From: a virus
Taxonomy: Duplodnaviria > Heunggongvirae > Uroviricota > Caudoviricetes
Reading direction: 5' to 3' (one strand)
DNA: 21,083 nt
IMG/VR virus record: IMGVR_UViG_2802429228_000007
Location: 1-21,083 of that record
Part shown: positions 8,196 through 19,664 of the stretch, in pieces
Position numbering within the stretch: the stretch's first letter is position 1
Layout: each line of letters starts with the position of its first letter
Made by a program: the position numbers and the translations under genes
The notes under the pieces: generated by a model
Told to the model about the DNA's origin: nothing
The model's database searches: none
What the model saw: only the letters and a program-made list of their open reading frames with translations

Positions 8196-9581
8196 TCACC
8201 AATAAATAATAACAATCCCATTAGCACCTTTCCCGGCTCTAACTCCAGTTGATAGCGTGGGTTTCAATCCCGCACCACCACCTCCTGGAGCAACCGCATC
8301 TGCAGCAATGTTTGTGGAGGTGGTGGCGGAAGCGCCGTATCCTCCTGGCCCCCCACCTGATCCACCAGGGATAGACTGAAGTAATGCTGAATTTGTCGAA
8401 TCAATAACAGCGCCAGGGGAACCTGGACCAAGTGAGGATATGTTTGTTGCTCCGACCCCTACGCCTGAAGGGCCACCGGATGGCTGCCCCCCACCACTAC
8501 CTCCCGTAGCAGACATATATGTGCCAAAAGAGGATGACCCGCCACTGCCACCGTTCGATGAGATGGTCGTTGCAGCACTTCCCCCCTGACCAACAGTAAT
8601 ACTGACGGTTGCTATTCCAGTTAAATCAACTAATCCTTCGGCGATACCACCGCCGCCACCGCCGCCACCGGAGGTGCTCGAAAGATTTCCAATCGCACCG
8701 CCTCCTCCAGCACCTATAACGCGTACAAATGCCTTTCTTCCATTCTTAAGCACATCAGGAACTTCCCAATTTGTAACTCCTACTGCACTGATATTAATAT
8801 AATTTTTTAATCCATAAGTTGAATCTGTTAAACCAAGGTATTCGAGAATAGCGGCGACATCTTTCCCTGACAGGTCTGTTAGCGTCTTATCCAGCGGCTG
8901 CTTATTCGCCAGTTCCCCGGATACAAGGGCGGCAATAACCGCCCGCACAAACTCCGCTGTAGCAACTTGTGTATCATTTGCTACGACCGGCGGCGTGGGT
9001 GCTCTTGGCTTGCCGGTAAAGGTCGGGCTGTCCTTTGTCGCATATTGTGAATGCGGGTCAGCCGCCGCAAGGTGCTTAGACATCAAGTCATCGACATACA
9101 GTTTCAGCTCAATTGCCTTGTCATCGGCATATTTTCGGGTTGCCAGAACGACTGACGGGTCGATTTTCAGGGTGATTGCCGACGTGCTCGACACAATCAG
9201 AATCATGCGAATGGTCTGCGTGCGGCCGCTTCCCTCCTGCAGTTGCGGCTTGTAGGTCTCCGGGCAGTTCGCCACGGCAATCAGGATGCCGTCTGTATCG
9301 TAGAGGCCAATCTCGCGGATCCAGAAACCGCCCTCATTCTCGGGAATAATCTGTTCCGCGATAATCTGACTGGTATTGGCCGGGTCAACAGTCAGCTGGT
9401 TCAGCGGCGCGATGCGCTTCTGGTTAATGAGCTTGGTCTGCGCCGGGTCAGGGGTCGGCAACGTACCATTCGCATCACCGACGGCCATCTGCGTCAGGTT
9501 GAGTTTGGTACCGAGTGCCGCCGCGTTCGCCAGCCGCGCCGCGCCCTGATTGGTCAGAATGGCAAAATATTTTGCGGTCAT
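8196..9581 (-). CDS. H: Tail fibre protein gpH-like with a glycine-rich C-terminal domain
   Basis: 461-aa ORF. The N-terminal 270 aa or so match the conserved gpH N-terminus (ATG at 9581 overlaps the I stop). The C-terminal 180 aa or so are Gly-rich low complexity (GAGGGGAIG, SGGGGGGGG, GGSGGS, GGSGGGQPSGGPSG, GGSGGGPGGYG, APGGGGAG) ending GIVIIYW. Confidence 0.85.
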   Translation of the reverse strand: MTAKYFAILTNQGAARLANAAALGTKLNLTQMAVGDANGTLPTPDPAQTKLINQKRIAPLNQLTVDPANTSQIIAEQIIPENEGGFWIREIGLYDTDGILIAVANCPETYKPQLQEGSGRTQTIRMILIVSSTSAITLKIDPSVVLATRKYADDKAIELKLYVDDLMSKHLAAADPHSQYATKDSPTFTGKPRAPTPPVVANDTQVATAEFVRAVIAALVSGELANKQPLDKTLTDLSGKDVAAILEYLGLTDSTYGLKNYINISAVGVTNWEVPDVLKNGRKAFVRVIGAGGGGAIGNLSSTSGGGGGGGGIAEGLVDLTGIATVSITVGQGGSAATTISSNGGSGGSSSFGTYMSATGGSGGGQPSGGPSGVGVGATNISSLGPGSPGAVIDSTNSALLQSIPGGSGGGPGGYGASATTSTNIAADAVAPGGGGAGLKPTLSTGVRAGKGANGIVIIYW

Positions 9582-12204: not shown

Positions 12205-12771
12205 ATGCAATTACCCTGGCTCACAGTAAAAAATGAAGGTGTTTGGCAAATGACTGAAAGAAAAAAAACCTTAGGCGATGATGAGGTTGTGCCTTATTTT
12301 AATAACGATTGTGAACAAATAAAATTCGAATTTGCTTATTTAATAGTTCTTTTTGTAATAGGTTGCATTCTCGCCTTTCTTTTCCAATTTGTTTTTGAGC
12401 TGTCATATAATAATAAAATATCTTTGTTTTCTATTCTTGGCGGCTTTTTTGGAGGGTGGGTGTATAATGCAAAATGGTTTTATAGAGTAACTGCTAGAGG
12501 GAAAAACAATCAGTATAATTTTCCTTGGGAATCCCATAAGTTCTACTGGAGGATTTTTATTCCGTTCTTAGCTGCTTTAGTGGCTTTTTGTTCTTATACG
12601 ATATTATCTCCGGATACGTTTGTATCCTCCATTAAAGGGCATGGTAAGACCAAAATTGCATTCTCGATTTGTTTTATATTAGGATATTTTTCAGACTTAG
12701 TTCTAAGCCGACTCGCATCTTGGGCTGAAAAATTGCTCCCTAAAAAACCAGGAGACAATAAACGTGAATAA
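12205..12771 (+). CDS. Predicted 4-TM inner-membrane protein, unknown function (cargo cassette gene 1)
   Basis: AT-rich ORF on the opposite strand to the flanking tail genes. Four hydrophobic segments (FAYLIVLFVIGCILAFLFQFVF, ISLFSILGGFFGGWVY, IFIPFLAALVAFCSYTIL, IAFSICFILGYFSDLVL) and a K/R-rich C-terminus. Start uncertain: TTG 12199, ATG 12205, or ATG 12250 preceded by an AAGGTG Shine-Dalgarno-like sequence. Stop overlaps the next gene's GTG start by 8 nt. Confidence 0.6.
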   Translation: MQLPWLTVKNEGVWQMTERKKTLGDDEVVPYFNNDCEQIKFEFAYLIVLFVIGCILAFLFQFVFELSYNNKISLFSILGGFFGGWVYNAKWFYRVTARGKNNQYNFPWESHKFYWRIFIPFLAALVAFCSYTILSPDTFVSSIKGHGKTKIAFSICFILGYFSDLVLSRLASWAEKLLPKKPGDNKRE

Positions 12772-13408
12772 TTCTTGTAATTCGTTCTGTGGAATATGCG
12801 ATGAAATAAATGGCATTAGCCTTATCAAAGGATACGATGAAATCGTAAATGACAAGAAAAATATCATTGCAGAAACAAATGATTTTCTAATTGTACCTAG
12901 TATTGGCCCGCTAAATAATTCGCATGTGATGCTGATTCCTAAGCGGCATATCAACTCCTTTGCTGCTCTTGATCGAGATACCCGGAGTAATGGCAAGGAG
13001 ATTCTGCGAGAACTTAATGAATTTATAATCCACCAATCTGGTAGATCTCTAATTTTCTTTGAAAGCGGAGCAGGTGAAAATATAGATCGTTCAGGAGGGT
13101 GCATTTCTCACGCTCATATACACTGTGTTTATTATACACAAGAGTTTGAAAATGCTCTAAATAAAGAAATTAACTTTAAGAAAATTGAAGGTGAGAATTT
13201 AAGTTTTGACATTAAAAATGGATATGTGTGGTATATGAGTAATAGTTATGATGAATTTTTATGCAACAAACCACTCTTACCATCTCAGTTCCTTAGATAT
13301 CTTTATTCTAATGCAAATTTGATACATGGCAATTGGAATTGGCGCAGAGATAACAACATCAGCGGTGTTCTAGAGGTTATTGATAATTACGCAGATTTCA
13401 AACTATAA
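12764..13408 (+). CDS. HIT-like (histidine triad) nucleotide hydrolase/transferase superfamily protein with a C-terminal extension of unknown function (cargo cassette gene 2)
   Basis: 214-aa ORF, GTG start 7 nt after an AGGAG Shine-Dalgarno. N-terminal CxxC (FCGICDE). HVMLIPKRHI segment resembles the Fhit/Hint H.L..P..H core. Histidine-triad motif HAHIHCV (H-x-H-x-H-x-x) preceded by SGGC. About 85 further C-terminal residues with no recognisable motif. AT-rich. Confidence 0.6.
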   Translation: MNNSCNSFCGICDEINGISLIKGYDEIVNDKKNIIAETNDFLIVPSIGPLNNSHVMLIPKRHINSFAALDRDTRSNGKEILRELNEFIIHQSGRSLIFFESGAGENIDRSGGCISHAHIHCVYYTQEFENALNKEINFKKIEGENLSFDIKNGYVWYMSNSYDEFLCNKPLLPSQFLRYLYSNANLIHGNWNWRRDNNISGVLEVIDNYADFKL

Positions 13409-14890: not shown

Positions 14891-16767
14891 GCCATCACCC
14901 CGCCAGCCGTGCGCCACACAGTGACCAGTTTGTGAACTCCGAGGGACGGCTTTGCCGTCCTGAAGGTCAACGGCCAAATCAACAGCATGCTTCGGAACAA
15001 TCTTCCACTGAGTGAGCCGGGTTAAAATCGGGCTACCTGCACCTATGGAGGAATCGTAGACCCCCTTAATACATACCGTTTCCTCACCGTACTGATTAAG
15101 CTCGGTACGTGGTTCATACAGTGTGCGCACCTGTAAATCATCGCGACGGACAAACGGTCCACCCTGCGCATTAACATAACCAGCCCAGTCACCAGCGTCG
15201 GCGGCATCATGGACGGCGGCAAACTCAACGCTCAGTCCGTGCGCGGTTTCGGTATCAGCGAGGCGACGCAACTCACGGTAAACCGTCACCGGCGCACCAC
15301 CGATAAACTGAAACTGACGGATGTGCCAGCGCGAAGCCCATGCTGAAACGGCGGGGGCTGTCTCTTTCAGCAGTTCACCGCTTTCATCATCGGTTTCACC
15401 ATCGAGAGCATAACCGTCGATATTTTTTGATATGTATTTAGCAACATAGCCGGTTGCGCTGCCTTTCTCCGGGTCAATGGACTCGGCGTGGAAACGTGCT
15501 TTTTTTGCCTTATCGCTTTTCAGTTCGCGGCGGTCTTCTTTCCACGCGTATTTACGGACGATGGAGCGAACATATTCAACATCTTCCGGCAGCATGAACA
15601 TCAGCATGTGCCAGTGTGGAGTACCGTCGTGATGGGGCTCGGCGACACGAATACCGAAAATACGGACATCTTCCCGATGCAGTTTGGCACGGATACGCGC
15701 CCAGATATCAGTTAGATAGTTTTGCGTGTCAGCCGGGCTGGCACCGCTCCATTTGCTGTTACGGTAACCGGCTTTAGTCGTGGCGTGATATTTCGACGGC
15801 GCGGTCAGAGTGTAAAACTCACCGACATAACCGAGCTCATTACAGATGTTTTCAAACCCACGAATGCGAGTCATGAGCTCACAGCGGCGAATCGCAGGGT
15901 TAGCAACTGAGCCATCATATTTTTCAATCAGGCTGATACGGTTGCCGTCTTCGTCTTCGAGATCCAGACCTTTGAGAAATTCACGAGTTCGGCGCTTTTG
16001 TTCACGCCAGTCAGTCACGCAGTTTTTACTCGCATAGGTGTTTTTTTTCTTGCTGACGTTGCCGACTGCAATTTGCAGGTGTTCGCGCCACGTAGCTGCA
16101 ACCCGGCGCAAACGACCACGCCACCACCCATCGTTAAACATCTTGGCGATAGCCGGTGCGATTTCATCCGCGCCAACATATTTTTTGCAACCCGATCCCA
16201 ATGGGGGGGGATAACGTTGAACTGGAGGGAAATAAAGCCAGCACGATTATACCAGGTGTACAGCGTTTTAAGCTCGCCGAATCCGTGGTCATTAATGTTG
16301 GCAAGTTCACCACGAATGAAATTAGCAATATCGGCGGCCAACAGGTCAACATCAGCGCGCGACATATCCGGGAGGCGGTTATATCGGGCGACCATATTAA
16401 CCATGCGTGACGCCAGATATTGCATAAGCTGGGTATCAAAATGACTTCCAAAAACAGAGGTTGATACCTTGCTGTTGATACCCGCGCATTCGTATTTTTT
16501 TGCGACCAATTCAAGACGCGGCAATGCCTTTTTGCAGAAGCTGATCAAAAAGGCATTGGCTCGTTGAATGCCCTGATTTTGCTCCAGCACTGCCGCAGTG
16601 CGATAAACATCTAACCGCACGCAGTCGGGCTGGAGAGAAAGCACCTTTTTAGCATGCAGCATCGCCGCGAACATACGGTCGCGGCGATGCTGTTGCTTAT
16701 AAGTAAGGTATGGGCTGGCTATAGCCGATCGTGGAGCATTCCACGGATAAGCGAATTGAACAGCCAA
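14891..16767 (-). pseudogene. A: Replication initiator gpA (rolling-circle endonuclease), frameshifted and 3'-truncated, running in frame into lysB
   Basis: N-terminal part in the 16767..16015 frame (TTG start after a GGGGGG Shine-Dalgarno; YPWNAPRS, NRLPDM). The remainder is in the 16201..14891 frame with hallmark motifs IAKMFNDGWW, FYTLTAPSKYH, EPHHDGTPHWHMLMF and YVAKYISKNIDGYALDG. The frames switch at a C8 run (plus-strand G8 at 16203-16210). There is no stop between the A-like sequence and the lysB ATG. Confidence 0.8.
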
Positions 16768-17793: not shown

Positions 17794-18303
17794 TCATACC
17801 AAACCAAATGTTGCGCCGATGCCGGTCATGGTATCAACCACGCTCGACATTGCCGGGTTAGCCTGTAGACGCGCCTGTAACGCCAGCGCCGACAGAGACA
17901 ACATGCGGATGCCTGCATTAACACTCTCAACCATGCTGTGTTTGCGGTCAGAGGTCATACGTTCATTTGATACCGCACCGCTCGCCAGTTCGCCGAGTTC
18001 ACTCATTGCGCGCATCACATAAGACTGCAATTTCTCTTTAGCCAGCTCATTAACCGGCACGCATGGCAGACAATGTATTTGCGCCAGAAAGCCATCAACG
18101 AGGGTTGAGTCTTCGGTCAGGTCAGTCAGCAGCCACAATTCAGGCGGTGTGAATTGGTGAGGCTGTTCTGGGTTGAGCTTGTTACGTAACGTTTGAACGT
18201 TCATACCCGCACGCTCGGCCAGCTTCGCCATGTTGTGACGCTGCGCAAAAGCCCGGCACGCTTCGTCATAGTGAGGATGTTTAGAAATCTGAAAATCAAA
18301 CAT
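17794..18303 (-). CDS. cII: Phage 186 CII-like transcriptional activator (establishment of lysogeny)
   Basis: 169 aa from ATG 18303 (MFDFQISKHPHYDEACRAFAQRHNMAKLAERAGMNVQTLRNKL... with a helix-turn-helix) preceded by an AGAGGGAA Shine-Dalgarno. Position after the apl-like gene matches the 186 early operon. Confidence 0.7.
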   Translation of the reverse strand: MFDFQISKHPHYDEACRAFAQRHNMAKLAERAGMNVQTLRNKLNPEQPHQFTPPELWLLTDLTEDSTLVDGFLAQIHCLPCVPVNELAKEKLQSYVMRAMSELGELASGAVSNERMTSDRKHSMVESVNAGIRMLSLSALALQARLQANPAMSSVVDTMTGIGATFGLV

Positions 18304-18335
18304 GGTTAAATTCCCTCTAACTTGCATAATCAAAT

Positions 18336-18707
18336 TCAGTTAAGAGCGATGCGGTGGTCGATGTAGCGACAATCAATCGCTTGCTGGGTTAGTTTGTCGC
18401 GCCATGCTTTCACGTTTACGAGGGTGCGGCTTCGTTTTCCAGCCTCTTCCTTGTTGGAAAAGTCTTTAGTTGGAGCTTTGAGGAGGATTCCCTCATCAAG
18501 CCATTGCCAGACCAGACGCTCGCTTACACCGCGAGTGGCGGCAAAGTCTTTCACTGTCATTGTGTCTGACATAGCGGAGCGGATCATTGTCTGCAGAGCT
18601 GGCAGCATAGCGGTAACGATGGCATCAAACTGAGCCGGATCTAACAGCACAGTTTGATTTTGTGAGTTTTGCGAATCATGCGTCGAGATTGATTTTGCAT
18701 CTGACAT
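18336..18707 (-). CDS. Apl/Cox-like DNA-binding protein (excision/switch regulator)
   Basis: First gene of the operon divergent from cI. Excisionase-like helix-turn-helix (MTVKDFAATRGVSERLVWQWLDEG). The true start may be an internal Met; the N-terminal 50 aa or so are low complexity. Confidence 0.5.
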   Translation of the reverse strand: MSDAKSISTHDSQNSQNQTVLLDPAQFDAIVTAMLPALQTMIRSAMSDTMTVKDFAATRGVSERLVWQWLDEGILLKAPTKDFSNKEEAGKRSRTLVNVKAWRDKLTQQAIDCRYIDHRIALN

Positions 18708-18827
18708 ATCGCATTATCTCCTGTTGTTTGTAGTGAACTGCATTGATGTGCATCGTGGTTGATAATCATCACTTTAGTTCGCGAAATTTAATTTTGCAAT
18801 GGCAAAAATTAATTTTGGTGGCGATAC
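18708..18827. promoter_or_regulatory. cI / apl intergenic switch region (divergent genes; promoters and operators expected)
   Basis: 120-bp AT-rich spacer between divergently transcribed cI and apl-like genes. Contains the direct repeat TTAATTTTG twice (18788-18796 and 18809-18817, 21 bp apart) flanking an imperfect inverted repeat AATTTTGC-AATG-GCAAAAAT. No confident -35/-10 pair could be assigned by eye. Confidence 0.5.
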
Positions 18828-19664
18828 ATGGCTAAATTTGGAGATGGTGCGGCTCCGGCTATCGAAAGAATCCTTTCGGCTTATGGACTTAGCTCGCAAA
18901 AAGAACTTGGCGAAAAACTTGGTATTTATGCCAACAACATAAGCAGTTGGCTTGCCAGAGATAGCGTTCCGGGCAATGTATTTGTTGAATGTGCTATTGA
19001 AACGGGCGCAGATATCGGATGGTTAGTGACAGGGGAGCTTGCAAAAGCAAACTCTCCACGTGCGACCCTGAAGGGCAAAGAGCTTTATGAAAAGGTCATG
19101 GCTTCAGGTGGTAAACCTGTTCTGAGACGCATCCTTGATGCTTACGGTTTTTCTATGCAAAAGGAGCTGGGTGATTTACTCGGTATATCATCTGGAACAA
19201 TTAGCACATGGGTTCGGCGTGATTTTTTCCCAGGCGATGTAGTTGTTACTTGTGCCCTTGATACTGGTGTTTCGCTGGAATGGTTAGCAACCGGCAAGGG
19301 GCAAATGCGAACTAACAGAGAAATGGTCACATCAAGTTTTTCAATTAAAAAATTTCGCCTTGAAGCGGGTGAGCTTAAGGACGCTGGCGAATGGCATCCA
19401 GACCCCTCGATGATACCCTCTGACTCAGAGGAGTTGATTTTTGTTGAAGGTGTTGGAGCCTCTTGGCTTGTCAACCGTTCTGCTTCGAACATAAGTAATG
19501 GGCGTTGGTTAATTGATATTGACGGCGCTCTTGATGTTTTTGATGTAATTCGTCTTCCCGGCGGAAAAGTCAGGTTGTCAAATAAGTCTGCCGAGTTTGA
19601 ATGCAGCATTACAGATATCACACCAGTAGGTGCTGTAATTTTCACATTGGAAAAACACGTATAA
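18828..19664 (+). CDS. cI: 186-type CI immunity repressor with tandemly duplicated N-terminal DNA-binding domain
   Basis: 278-aa ORF. Two N-terminal repeats of the phage-CI-repressor helix-turn-helix fold (RILSAYGLSSQKELGEKLGIYANNISSWLARDSVPGNVFVECAIETGADIGWLVTGE and RILDAYGFSMQKELGDLLGISSGTISTWVRRDFFPGDVVVTCALDTGVSLEWLATGKG). C-terminal domain (GRWLIDIDGALDVFDVIRLPGGKVRL...FECSITDITPVGAVIF) resembles the 186 CI oligomerisation domain. Confidence 0.75.
   Translation: MAKFGDGAAPAIERILSAYGLSSQKELGEKLGIYANNISSWLARDSVPGNVFVECAIETGADIGWLVTGELAKANSPRATLKGKELYEKVMASGGKPVLRRILDAYGFSMQKELGDLLGISSGTISTWVRRDFFPGDVVVTCALDTGVSLEWLATGKGQMRTNREMVTSSFSIKKFRLEAGELKDAGEWHPDPSMIPSDSEELIFVEGVGASWLVNRSASNISNGRWLIDIDGALDVFDVIRLPGGKVRLSNKSAEFECSITDITPVGAVIFTLEKHV

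What the first reader, a model, noticed from the sequence alone, without database searches (positions are those of the whole stretch)
18708..18827. Switch region with direct-repeat and inverted-repeat operator candidates
Seen in sequence: TTAATTTTG occurs twice 21 bp apart (18788-18796 and 18809-18817), bracketing the imperfect inverted repeat AATTTTGC-AATG-GCAAAAAT, just upstream of the cI start. Established knowledge: in 186 and P2 the lysogenic and lytic promoters are arranged face to face in this region and are controlled by CI and Apl/Cox binding. Inference: these repeats are candidate repressor or Apl binding sites.
Basis: partly seen in the sequence, partly recalled or inferred. Interest (0 to 1): 0.4.

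Follow-up and report, generated by a model that had tools for sequence, protein, structure and literature searches.

The report
Prophage repressor operator at lytic promoter
The repeats are real and are most likely the docking sites where this 186/PSP3-type prophage's CI repressor shuts off the lytic promoter, which is an ordinary kind of element, although the repressor that reads them has an unusual doubled DNA-binding head.

Summary
TTAATTTTG lies at 18788-96 and 18809-17, and it extends to two 17-bp near-palindromic units 21 bp apart (18781-97, 18802-18). These units also form a long inverted repeat centred near 18800. Taken alone the repeat is only weakly beyond chance (p about 0.05); the support comes from comparison with relatives.

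The window is a PSP3-like (Eganvirus, 186-type) E. coli prophage. By homology to PSP3 and to the annotated 186 record, the lytic promoter pR runs on the minus strand, with -35 TTGCAA at 18799-94 and -10 TAAAGT at 18776-71. The repeats therefore cover and flank its -35.

They lie in a roughly 320-bp variable cassette (about 18780-19100) that also encodes the first HTH domain of CI. In 81 distinct loci, operator type and first-HTH-domain type co-segregate one to one, while the flanks reassort. Among 17 prophages of the same type, the repeats evolve 5-9 times more slowly than synonymous sites.

Best reading: these are immunity-specific CI operators that occlude pR. The Apl alternative is disfavoured. 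The Apl-like protein is shared between heteroimmune types, and better candidate sites for it (TGCAT repeats 10 bp apart) lie in the conserved pR-pL interval.

This is a new immunity type within a known kind of switch, with a variant tandem-HTH CI. No binding or transcript data exist.

The parts
18781..18797 (.). Repeat unit 1, GCGAAATTTAATTTTGC. It is a 17-bp near-palindrome centred at 18789. It covers the pR spacer and the first 4 nt of the -35, and contains the first TTAATTTTG.
18802..18818 (.). Repeat unit 2, GCAAAAATTAATTTTGG. It contains the perfect 12-bp palindrome AAAATTAATTTT, centred at 18810.5, lies just upstream of the pR -35, and contains the second TTAATTTTG.
18788..18812 (.). Central inverted repeat TTAATTTTGC-AATG-GCAAAAATTAA, centred near 18800 on the upstream edge of the pR -35. 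It is the best-conserved segment among type-A prophages (pi 0.028) and the most likely core CI operator.
18794..18799 (-). Inferred pR (lytic promoter) -35 hexamer, TTGCAA. It occupies the same position as TTTACA in PSP3 and AST217.
   Evidence: not found by the scan in the window itself (8 of 12 matches)
18771..18776 (-). Inferred pR -10 hexamer, TAAAGT, with a 17-bp spacer. The transcription start is inferred near 18764.
18739..18753 (+). CTGCATT / GTGCATC: two TGCAT motifs 10 bp apart between the inferred pR and pL starts. They are candidate binding sites for the Apl/Cox-like protein.
   Evidence: It is the only same-strand TGCAT pair spaced 9-12 bp in the window. A similar TGCAA-N5-TGCAT pair follows the int stop codon in most of the PSP3-like phages checked.
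18712..18717 (+). Inferred pL (lysogenic promoter) -10, CATTAT, 4 nt outside the apl-like start codon. The geometry matches CATGAT in 186.
   Evidence: inference by position
18689..18694 (+). Inferred pL -35, TTGATT, with a 17-bp spacer, inside the 5' end of the apl-like gene as in 186.
   Evidence: inference by position
18336..18707 (-). Apl/Cox-like gene (123 aa), the first gene of the lytic operon.
   Evidence: PHROG 575 Cox-like excisionase, E = 1.6e-4; no Pfam hit
18828..19664 (+). cI, 278 aa. It has two Phage_CI_repr HTH domains: NTD1, about residues 8-68, and NTD2, about residues 95-155. These are followed by a Phage_CI_C domain.
18780..19100 (.). Immunity cassette: the operator repeats plus the sequence coding for CI NTD1. 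Identity to other immunity types falls to 20-60% here, while the flanks stay at 75-100% against the closest heteroimmune types.
18818..18822 (+). GGTGG, the likely Shine-Dalgarno sequence of cI, 5 nt before the ATG.
   Evidence: inference

Best explanation
The AT-rich repeats at 18781-18818 are the immunity-specific operator of the prophage's CI repressor. They overlap and flank the -35 hexamer of the lytic promoter pR, which fires leftwards into apl-like, cII and the replication genes. CI bound there would exclude RNA polymerase from pR. That would also relieve the convergent lysogenic promoter pL, which drives cI and int, from interference, as in coliphage 186.

Two site architectures are possible. 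One is two 17-bp near-palindromes two helical turns apart, the 186-like reading, with adjacent CI units of an oligomer each taking one site. The other is a single 25-bp inverted repeat, AATTTTGC-N4-GCAAAAAT, centred at the -35; this segment is the better conserved of the two.

Recognition is most likely by the first, variable HTH domain (NTD1) of the tandem-HTH CI.

Shown: the sequence anatomy, the position relative to the homologous promoter, conservation, and co-segregation with NTD1.
Inferred: binding, repression, the promoter start sites, and which domain reads the sites.
For: 1. Identity of the system. CI carries two Phage_CI_repr domains plus Phage_CI_C and is 33% identical and collinear with 186 CI (PDB 2FJR and 2FKD). 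CII, Fil, Int and an apl/cox-like gene are arranged as in 186 and PSP3.

2. Position.
- The scan finds a single promoter-like site in PSP3 and in AST217, on the lytic strand (TTTACA-17-TATAGT or TATATT, 10 of 12 matches).
- That site maps to window 18799..18771, so the repeats cover the -35 and the DNA on either side of it.
- In 186 the three CI sites span the interval from the cI start across pR and are spaced two helical turns apart (PMC3675496).
- Here the spacing is 21 bp.

3. Immunity linkage.
- The left part of the spacer, 18660-18782, is nearly invariant across nine relatives, whereas sequence from 18783 into CI NTD1 is type-specific.
- In 81 distinct loci, 8 NTD1 clusters map one to one onto 8 operator clusters, apart from one borderline sub-type split (C/C'). 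The conserved left flank reassorts.

4. Other types have their own repeats at the same place. Inverted repeats are centred within 1.5 bp of the -35 in types B, C', F and G. Direct repeats of 21-22 bp occur in types C and D. Type B has an almost identical recognition helix (ANNVSSWLAR against ANNISSWLAR) and shares the half-site AATTTTG.

5. Constraint. Among 17 type-A sequences, pi is 0.048 for the repeats and 0.028 for the central inverted repeat. It is 0.24-0.27 at third codon positions and 0.243 in the 9 nt between the repeats and the ATG.
Against: - There are no binding, footprint or transcript data.
- The promoter scan finds nothing in the window itself. The type-A pR is only an 8-of-12 match, placed by homology.
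- Co-segregation of operator and NTD1 is partly expected from physical adjacency alone.
- Only two units are present, not three as in 186, and no distal FL/FR-like copies exist within 21 kb.
- In the most distant type-A relatives (L105, L106) the outer halves of both units and the exact 9-mer direct repeat are not conserved, so the architecture is unresolved.
- Six singleton substitutions fall inside the repeats.
- The repeat alone is only about p = 0.05 under local composition.
Confidence: 0.7

Rival explanations
1. The AT-rich tract is mainly promoter architecture, not a repressor site. On this view it is an UP-element-like or intrinsically bent A/T tract upstream of the pR -35 that stimulates the lytic promoter. 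The repeat would be a by-product of A/T-tract composition.
For: Unit 2 lies at about -40 to -52 relative to the inferred pR start, and on the promoter strand it reads AAAATTAATTTTT. From my own knowledge of the UP consensus, not tested here, this resembles the AAAWWTWTTTT core. The other types are also A/T-rich just upstream of the -35, and AAAATTA recurs in types A, B and C. Local composition alone produces such repeats in 5-12% of simulations.
Against: The tract is out of register with the UP consensus by about 5 nt. Unit 1 lies inside the spacer and the -35, where an UP element cannot act. The sequences are type-specific and palindromic and co-segregate with NTD1. A generic UP element need not change with immunity type. 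The two roles are not mutually exclusive.
Confidence: 0.1
2. The repeats are binding sites for the Apl/Cox-like protein, which would act as lytic-phase repressor and excisionase.
For: In 186 and P2 the Apl/Cox proteins bind direct repeats in the switch region (PMC7498355 abstract). The first gene of the lytic operon here is weakly Cox-like.
Against: The apl-like gene is 85-98% identical to those of types B, C (613R3) and D, whose variable segments are unrelated, so its sites should lie in conserved DNA. The 186 Apl sites are one helical turn apart and lie between pR and pL, not upstream of the pR -35. A better candidate exists: two TGCAT motifs 10 bp apart at 18739 and 18749. That motif pair also recurs next to the int-proximal att arm.
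Confidence: 0.05
3. The inverted repeat acts at the RNA level. It would form a hairpin in the pL-derived cI leader that partly sequesters the Shine-Dalgarno sequence and so tunes cI translation or mRNA stability.
For: The fold of 18776-18835 gives -13.1 kcal/mol, z = -1.9, equalled by 7 of 200 shuffles. The base of the stem pairs with part of GGUGG.
Against: The stem is A/U-rich and weak. L105 and L106 carry no compensatory changes: 18792 T to C is uncompensated. No Rfam family matches. A hairpin reading also does not explain the 21-bp direct periodicity or the link with NTD1.
Confidence: 0.05
4. The repeat is a chance repeat in AT-rich spacer DNA with no specific function.
For: Between 4.9% and 12.5% of composition-matched simulations contain such a 9-mer repeat, and the window holds about 9 comparable close repeats.
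Against: Variation here is five- to nine-fold lower than at neutral-like sites, while the adjacent 9 nt evolve at the neutral-like rate. Analogous type-specific repeats occur at the same promoter position in the other types.
Confidence: 0.05

Closest known systems
Coliphage 186 CI operators at pR (Eganvirus ev186): three inverted-repeat sites covering pR, plus the distal sites FL and FR
   Same: - CI is of the same family: Phage_CI_repr plus Phage_CI_C, 33% identical and collinear.
- The gene layout is the same: int-cI divergent from apl-cII.
- The sites begin next to the cI start and overlap the lytic promoter.
- Neighbouring sites are spaced two helical turns apart (against 21 bp here).
- The inferred pL sits in the same position relative to the apl start codon.
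   Different: - Only two units are present, not three, and they lie over and upstream of the -35 rather than spanning -35 to +1.
- No FL/FR-like distal copies are detectable in 21 kb.
- The operator sequences are unrelated.
- CI carries a second, extra N-terminal HTH domain.
- The Apl analogue is not detectably related to 186 Apl beyond a weak PHROG Cox-like hit (PMC3448106).
- The inferred overlap of the pR and pL transcripts is about 40 nt, against 62 in 186.
Salmonella phage PSP3 and other PSP3-like Eganvirus phages and prophages (SEN1, SW9, Midge, RCIP0057, vB_EcoM-613R3)
   Same: - The switch backbone is the same: the apl-like gene, cII, the pL region and the pR -10 are 75-100% identical.
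- The CI has the same tandem-HTH design, with a nearly invariant NTD2 and a similar CTD.
   Different: - The immunity cassette differs: the operator segment and NTD1 have about 20-60% DNA identity.
- Type A has TTGCAA instead of TTTACA as the -35, and 7 extra bp upstream of it.
- Type A is rare in E. coli, found in 3 of 5426 complete genomes. It also occurs in Enterobacter, Klebsiella and Citrobacter.
- I found no experimental description of any PSP3-type operator in the searchable literature.
P2-type C repressor operators (P2, P2 Hy dis, WPhi): two direct repeats, O1 and O2
   Same: There are two short direct repeats about two helical turns apart at the early promoter. In P2 they are 8 bp long and 22 bp apart centre to centre. 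[quoted passage not shown] Here the repeats are 9 bp exact, 21 bp apart, and flank the -35. The promoters are also convergent.
   Different: The repressor is not a P2 C protein (about 100 aa, not alignable with CI; PMC3448106). The units here are themselves palindromic. A cII gene is present.

Membership tests
186-type (CI/Apl/CII) lysis-lysogeny switch of Eganvirus phages | Immunity repressor with a 186 CI-type N-terminal HTH domain and a CI C-terminal oligomerisation domain | tested here: met
   Pfam PF07022 (two stretches, E = 3.4e-48) and PF16452 (E = 8.7e-21). BLASTP against 186 CI gives 33% identity over 174 aa, E = 1e-31. PDB 2FJR E = 1.8e-25 and 2FKD E = 3.4e-10.
186-type (CI/Apl/CII) lysis-lysogeny switch of Eganvirus phages | cI-int operon divergent from an apl-cII-fil early lytic operon, with a spacer of about 120-130 bp | tested here: met
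   ORFs and Pfam hits (Phage_CP76 CII, Phage_integrase); RefSeq annotation of the near-identical A38 prophage. The spacer is 120 bp, against 129 bp in 186.
186-type (CI/Apl/CII) lysis-lysogeny switch of Eganvirus phages | Face-to-face (convergent) promoters pR and pL within the spacer | tested here: inconclusive
   The scan finds no promoter in the window. pR is placed by homology to the 10-of-12 promoters of PSP3 and AST217. pL is placed by identical geometry to the annotated pL of 186. There are no transcript data.
186-type (CI/Apl/CII) lysis-lysogeny switch of Eganvirus phages | CI operators overlapping pR, with neighbouring sites two helical turns apart | tested here: met
   Met at sequence level only. 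Two 17-bp near-palindromes lie 21 bp apart over and upstream of the pR -35. The 186 spacing comes from PMC3675496. Binding is not testable here.
186-type (CI/Apl/CII) lysis-lysogeny switch of Eganvirus phages | Three operators at pR, plus distal FL and FR sites about 300 bp away that loop to pR | tested here: not met
   Only two units are present. No further copy of the 17-mer with up to 3 mismatches exists anywhere in the 21-kb window. Distal sites read by the conserved NTD2, with an unknown motif, cannot be excluded.
186-type (CI/Apl/CII) lysis-lysogeny switch of Eganvirus phages | Apl: a small HTH excisionase and repressor with helical-turn direct repeats between pR and pL and at att | tested here: inconclusive
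   The 123-aa protein has no Pfam hit, a weak PHROG 575 Cox-like hit (E = 1.6e-4) and no PDB relative. TGCAT repeats 10 bp apart occur between the inferred promoters, and a similar pair occurs next to int.
186-type (CI/Apl/CII) lysis-lysogeny switch of Eganvirus phages | CI assembles into a 14-mer wheel that wraps operator DNA | not testable with these tools
   The CTD is homologous to the 2FKD wheel domain. The monomer AF2 model has pTM 0.42 and flexible linkers and says nothing about oligomers.
P2-type C repressor / O1-O2 direct-repeat operator | Repressor is a P2 C-family protein of about 100 aa | tested here: not met
   The repressor here is a 278-aa 186-type CI. The C and CI families cannot be aligned (PMC3448106).
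P2-type C repressor / O1-O2 direct-repeat operator | Two direct repeats of 8-10 bp, 22-34 bp apart centre to centre, flanking the -10 or -35 of the early promoter | tested here: met
   A 9-bp exact repeat (16 nt at 88%) lies 21 bp apart on either side of, and overlapping, the pR -35. The P2 values come from PMC1904268. This is a resemblance in layout only.

The most novel reading that the evidence does not exclude
PSP3-type phages may have split the two jobs of 186 CI between two tandem HTH domains. NTD1 is variable and travels in a roughly 320-bp cassette with its operators; it would nucleate CI on type-specific sites at the pR -35 and so define immunity. NTD2 is almost invariant (0.22 bits per column, against 0.93 for NTD1 and 0.90 for the CTD), even though the DNA encoding it is about 20% diverged. 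It would read conserved DNA: the invariant pR -10 to pL segment, or distal sites that all types share. Alternatively it could bind a conserved protein partner such as an antirepressor. If so, a new immunity type arises by swapping one small cassette while the rest of the wrapped nucleoprotein switch stays the same.
Probability: 0.3. Interest if true: 0.6.

Novelty: new variant of a known kind. Interest (0 to 1): 0.33.

Why it matters
The feature itself is an expected part of a temperate-phage switch, and knowing it mainly helps annotation. It marks the immunity determinant of a rare PSP3-like immunity type found in E. coli, Enterobacter, Klebsiella and Citrobacter prophages.

The comparative picture is worth more. 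The 186 CI wheel is a model for cooperative, wrapped and looped gene regulation. The PSP3 branch offers a natural variant with two HTH domains per subunit, a compact exchangeable operator-plus-NTD1 cassette, and eight or more ready-made specificity pairs. These pairs could be used to test how operator spacing and symmetry are read by an oligomeric repressor, and as orthogonal repressor-operator parts.

The prophage in this window is defective (see the items noticed in passing) but keeps an intact cI, int and switch. The operator-CI pair may therefore survive chiefly as a superinfection-immunity module.

Tried and rejected
- Promoter and terminator scan of 18300-19100: nothing at the tool's 9-of-12 threshold. 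Promoters had to be placed by homology.
- Search for distal FL/FR-like copies of the operator in the window: none. A 14-bp A/T palindrome at 6774-6787 (ATTTTTGCAAAATT), inside an acyltransferase ORF, shares the half-sites but was judged coincidental.
- Scan of genome contigs with NTD1: only one locus, Enterobacter sp. MGH 24.
- Rfam on 18200-19200: only a sub-threshold chance hit.
- PDB sequence search with the Apl-like protein: nothing meaningful.
- AF2 model of CI, to see whether NTD1 and NTD2 pack as a pseudo-dimer: the domains are confident but the linkers fall below pLDDT 50 and pTM is 0.42, so the relative orientation is uninformative. I did not run a fold search.
- A bipartite unit, with a conserved half AAAATTA read by NTD2 and a variable half read by NTD1: the motif recurs in types A, B and C but at inconsistent distances from the -35. 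I rejected it as unsupported.
- A third operator in 21-bp phase, centred at 18768 or 18831.5: no convincing match. GCTAAATTT at 18831-39 resembles half of a unit but is out of phase and lies in coding sequence.
- Literature searches for PSP3 operators or a tandem-HTH CI: nothing beyond PMC3448106, which describes PsP3 CI as having a 'longer C-terminal domain'.

Full report
**1. What the window is**

The region belongs to a P2-like prophage with a 186-type control region.

- The closest characterised relatives are Salmonella phage PSP3 and its kin: SEN1, SW9, Midge, RCIP0057 and vB_EcoM-613R3.
- The right 6.1 kb of the window is 99.9% identical to a prophage of E. coli A38, which lies between rplS and yfiB.
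- On the plus strand lie cI (18828-19664), a DUF2511 gene and int.
- On the minus strand lie a 123-aa apl/cox-like gene (18707-18336), cII (Phage_CP76), fil, DUF5347, DUF2732, a DksA-like gene and the replication gene.
- The finding's coordinates, 18708-18827, are exactly the cI / apl-like spacer.

**2. The observation**

- The repeat tools extend it to a 16-nt direct repeat, 18781-96 and 18802-17, at 88% identity and 21-bp spacing.
- They also extend it to an inverted repeat with 14-nt arms, 18784-97 and 18802-15, at 86% complementarity.
- Each 17-bp unit is itself a near-palindrome: GCGAAATT-T-AATTTTGC and GCAAAAATT-AATTTTGG.
- Direct and inverted readings therefore coexist.

The 17-mer consensus occurs nowhere else in 21 kb. 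The DNA is AT-rich, however, and composition-matched simulations give a comparable 9-mer repeat in about 5% of cases for the spacer and about 12% for the AT-rich core. The observation alone is therefore weak evidence.

**3. Where the promoters are**

- The annotated 186 record places three CI sites from the cI start across pR. It places seven Apl sites between pR and pL. The pL -10 lies 4 nt outside the apl start codon, and the pL -35 lies inside apl.
- In PSP3 and in prophage AST217 the scan finds exactly one promoter-like site. It is on the lytic strand: TTTACA-17-TATAGT or TATATT, 10 of 12 matches.
- Through the alignment this maps to window 18799..18771. Type A there reads TTGCAA-17-TAAAGT, an 8-of-12 match, which is why one search found nothing.
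- On the other strand, TTGATT-17-CATTAT (18689-94 and 18712-17) has the same position relative to the apl-like ATG as pL of 186, TTGCGA-17-CATGAT.
- These promoter assignments are inferences. They imply convergent transcripts that overlap by about 40 nt.
- On this map, unit 1 covers the pR spacer and the -35, unit 2 lies just upstream, and the inverted-repeat centre (near 18800) sits on the upstream edge of the -35.

**4. Comparative evidence**

(a) The variable cassette.
- Across nine relatives, the spacer from the apl-like start up to the pR -10 is nearly invariant. Everything from 18783 into roughly the first 85 codons of cI is type-specific.
- A sliding identity profile shows the drop at about 18780-19100, with 20-60% DNA identity inside it and 75-100% in the flanks for the closest heteroimmune types.

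(b) The structure of CI.
- CI has two 186-type HTH domains. NTD2 plus the CTD are collinear with the whole of 186 CI.
- NTD1 is an extra copy, 53% identical to NTD2.
- The variable cassette therefore consists of the operator segment plus NTD1.

(c) Co-segregation.
- In 81 distinct loci from IMG/VR, GenBank phages, E. coli genomes and Logan assemblies, eight NTD1 clusters pair one to one with eight operator clusters.
- The only blur is between sub-types C and C'.
- The conserved left flank reassorts among the clusters.

(d) Other immunity types carry their own repeats at the same promoter position.
- Types B, C', F and G have inverted repeats centred within 1.5 bp of the -35.
- Types D' and E have inverted repeats in the spacer, the position of the central 186 operator.
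- Types C and D have direct repeats 21-22 bp apart.
- In type C, variant positions toggle between the states seen in the two copies.
- Type B has a near-identical recognition helix and uses the same half-site, AATTTTG.

(e) Constraint within type A (window, SA53-3, 11 IMG/VR contigs, Enterobacter MGH 24 and three Logan contigs):

| Segment | pi |
|---|---|
| Repeats, 18781-18818 | 0.048 |
| Central inverted repeat, 18788-18812 | 0.028 |
| Third codon positions of flanking genes | 0.24-0.27 |
| The 9 nt between the repeats and the ATG, 18819-18827 | 0.243 |

In the two most distant type-A relatives the outer halves of both units have diverged while the inner inverted repeat persists. For that reason I rank the inverted repeat as the core site.

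**5. CI or Apl?**

- The apl-like gene is 85-98% identical between the window and types B, C (613R3) and D, whose variable segments are unrelated. Its sites should therefore lie in conserved DNA.
- The conserved interval between the inferred promoters contains two TGCAT motifs 10 bp apart, at 18739 and 18749.
- This is the only such same-strand pair in the window. A similar TGCAA-N5-TGCAT pair follows the int stop codon in A38 and in five of the seven PSP3-like phage and prophage records checked.
- That arrangement is what an RDF-type protein would need, given that 186 Apl binds helical-turn direct repeats at pR-pL and at att (PMC7498355 abstract).
- I therefore assign the AT-rich repeats to CI. 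The TGCAT repeats are tentative candidates for the Apl-like protein.

**6. Mechanism**

- CI, probably through NTD1, binds 18781-18818 and blocks the pR -35. As in 186, silencing pR would relieve interference on the convergent pL.
- The 21-bp phase fits neighbouring CI units on one face of the DNA, as for the 186 wheel (PMC3675496).
- There are differences from 186: two units rather than three, no detectable FL/FR copies, a tandem-HTH CI, and an Apl analogue not detectably related to 186 Apl beyond a weak PHROG Cox-like hit (PMC3448106).
- The rivals are an UP-like A/T tract, Apl sites, a leader RNA hairpin (-13.1 kcal/mol, z = -1.9) and chance. I weigh each in the rivals section; none accounts for the type specificity together with the constraint.

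**7. Novelty**

- The element is an ordinary operator in kind. It belongs to a sub-family whose switch has not been described in the searchable literature.
- The most interesting by-product is the extreme conservation of NTD2. Its mean column entropy is 0.22 bits, against 0.93 for NTD1 and 0.90 for the CTD, over 40 proteins down to 57% identity. The DNA encoding it is only about 80% identical.
- This suggests a conserved ligand for NTD2, either DNA or protein, and a division of labour between the two HTH domains.
- The AF2 model gives three well-folded domains joined by flexible linkers and does not settle their arrangement.

Noticed in passing
window 18828-19664 (CI); NTD1 about 18849-19031, NTD2 about 19110-19292: CI carries two tandem 186-type HTH domains. 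NTD2 is nearly invariant across 40 homologues down to 57% identity (0.22 bits per column, against 0.93 for NTD1 and 0.90 for the CTD), although its DNA is about 20% diverged. It appears to be under much stronger purifying selection than the rest of the protein, and its ligand is unknown. An earlier comparative paper read the extra length as a 'longer C-terminal domain'.
   Followed up: partly
window 14933/14934 junction and 16180: The prophage is defective relative to the complete 31-kb prophage of E. coli A38. An 11.4-kb deletion joins the lysB/endolysin region to the inside of the replication endonuclease gene. It removes the endolysin, the holin, all the head, terminase and portal genes, and the 3' end of the replication gene. 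A 1-nt deletion in a T run at 16180 also frameshifts that gene. Left of the junction the window is 90-96% identical to A38; right of it, 99.9%. The element is therefore a mosaic.
   Followed up: yes
window 18781 (also 18804 in locus L012): In prophages otherwise identical to the window over about 820 bp, the only differences fall inside the repeats: G to T at 18781 in L011 and A38, and A to G at 18804 in L012. The numbers are small, but operator tuning or vir-like changes are possible.
   Followed up: partly
window 18739-18753; L108 31632-31662 (just after the int stop codon): Two TGCAT motifs lie 10 bp apart between the inferred pR and pL starts. This is the only such same-strand pair in 21 kb. 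A TGCAA-N5-TGCAT pair (plus a third TGCAT in A38) lies next to int, in A38 and in five of the seven PSP3-like records checked. These are candidate sites for the Apl/Cox-like excisionase and repressor.
   Followed up: partly
window 18336-18707 (minus strand): The first lytic-operon gene encodes a 123-aa protein with no Pfam domain and no PDB relative by sequence. It has only a weak PHROG 575 (Cox-like excisionase) match over residues 48-110. It is shared almost unchanged by heteroimmune PSP3-like phages.
   Followed up: partly
window 6749-7900 (plus strand), within the block 6489-9051 that has no match in A38: A cargo gene encoding an Acyl_transf_3 family acyltransferase sits between the tail sheath and tail fibre genes, on the opposite strand to them. 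By my own reading, not tested here, it looks like an O-antigen-modifying lysogenic-conversion gene in the P2 Z/fun-type hotspot. It has no PADLOC defence hit. A 14-bp A/T palindrome, ATTTTTGCAAAATT at 6774-6787, inside it shares the operator half-sites, probably by chance.
   Followed up: partly
window 12764-13408 (plus strand): A HIT-domain ORF (214 aa) lies on the strand opposite to the surrounding baseplate and tail-completion genes. A38 has a different hypothetical gene at this position. Its function is unknown.
   Followed up: no
window 18800-18806, compared with other immunity types: Type A has 7 extra bp just upstream of the pR -35 and uses the palindromic hexamer TTGCAA instead of the TTTACA found in all other types but one (type F has TTTACC). 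Its pR is a weaker consensus match, 8 of 12 against 10 of 12.
   Followed up: partly
window 2280-2325: A second pair of 17-mers matches at 14 of 17 positions with a 21-bp offset, with GCCACAATC at 2287 and 2308. It lies inside the tape-measure gene and I did not examine it.
   Followed up: no
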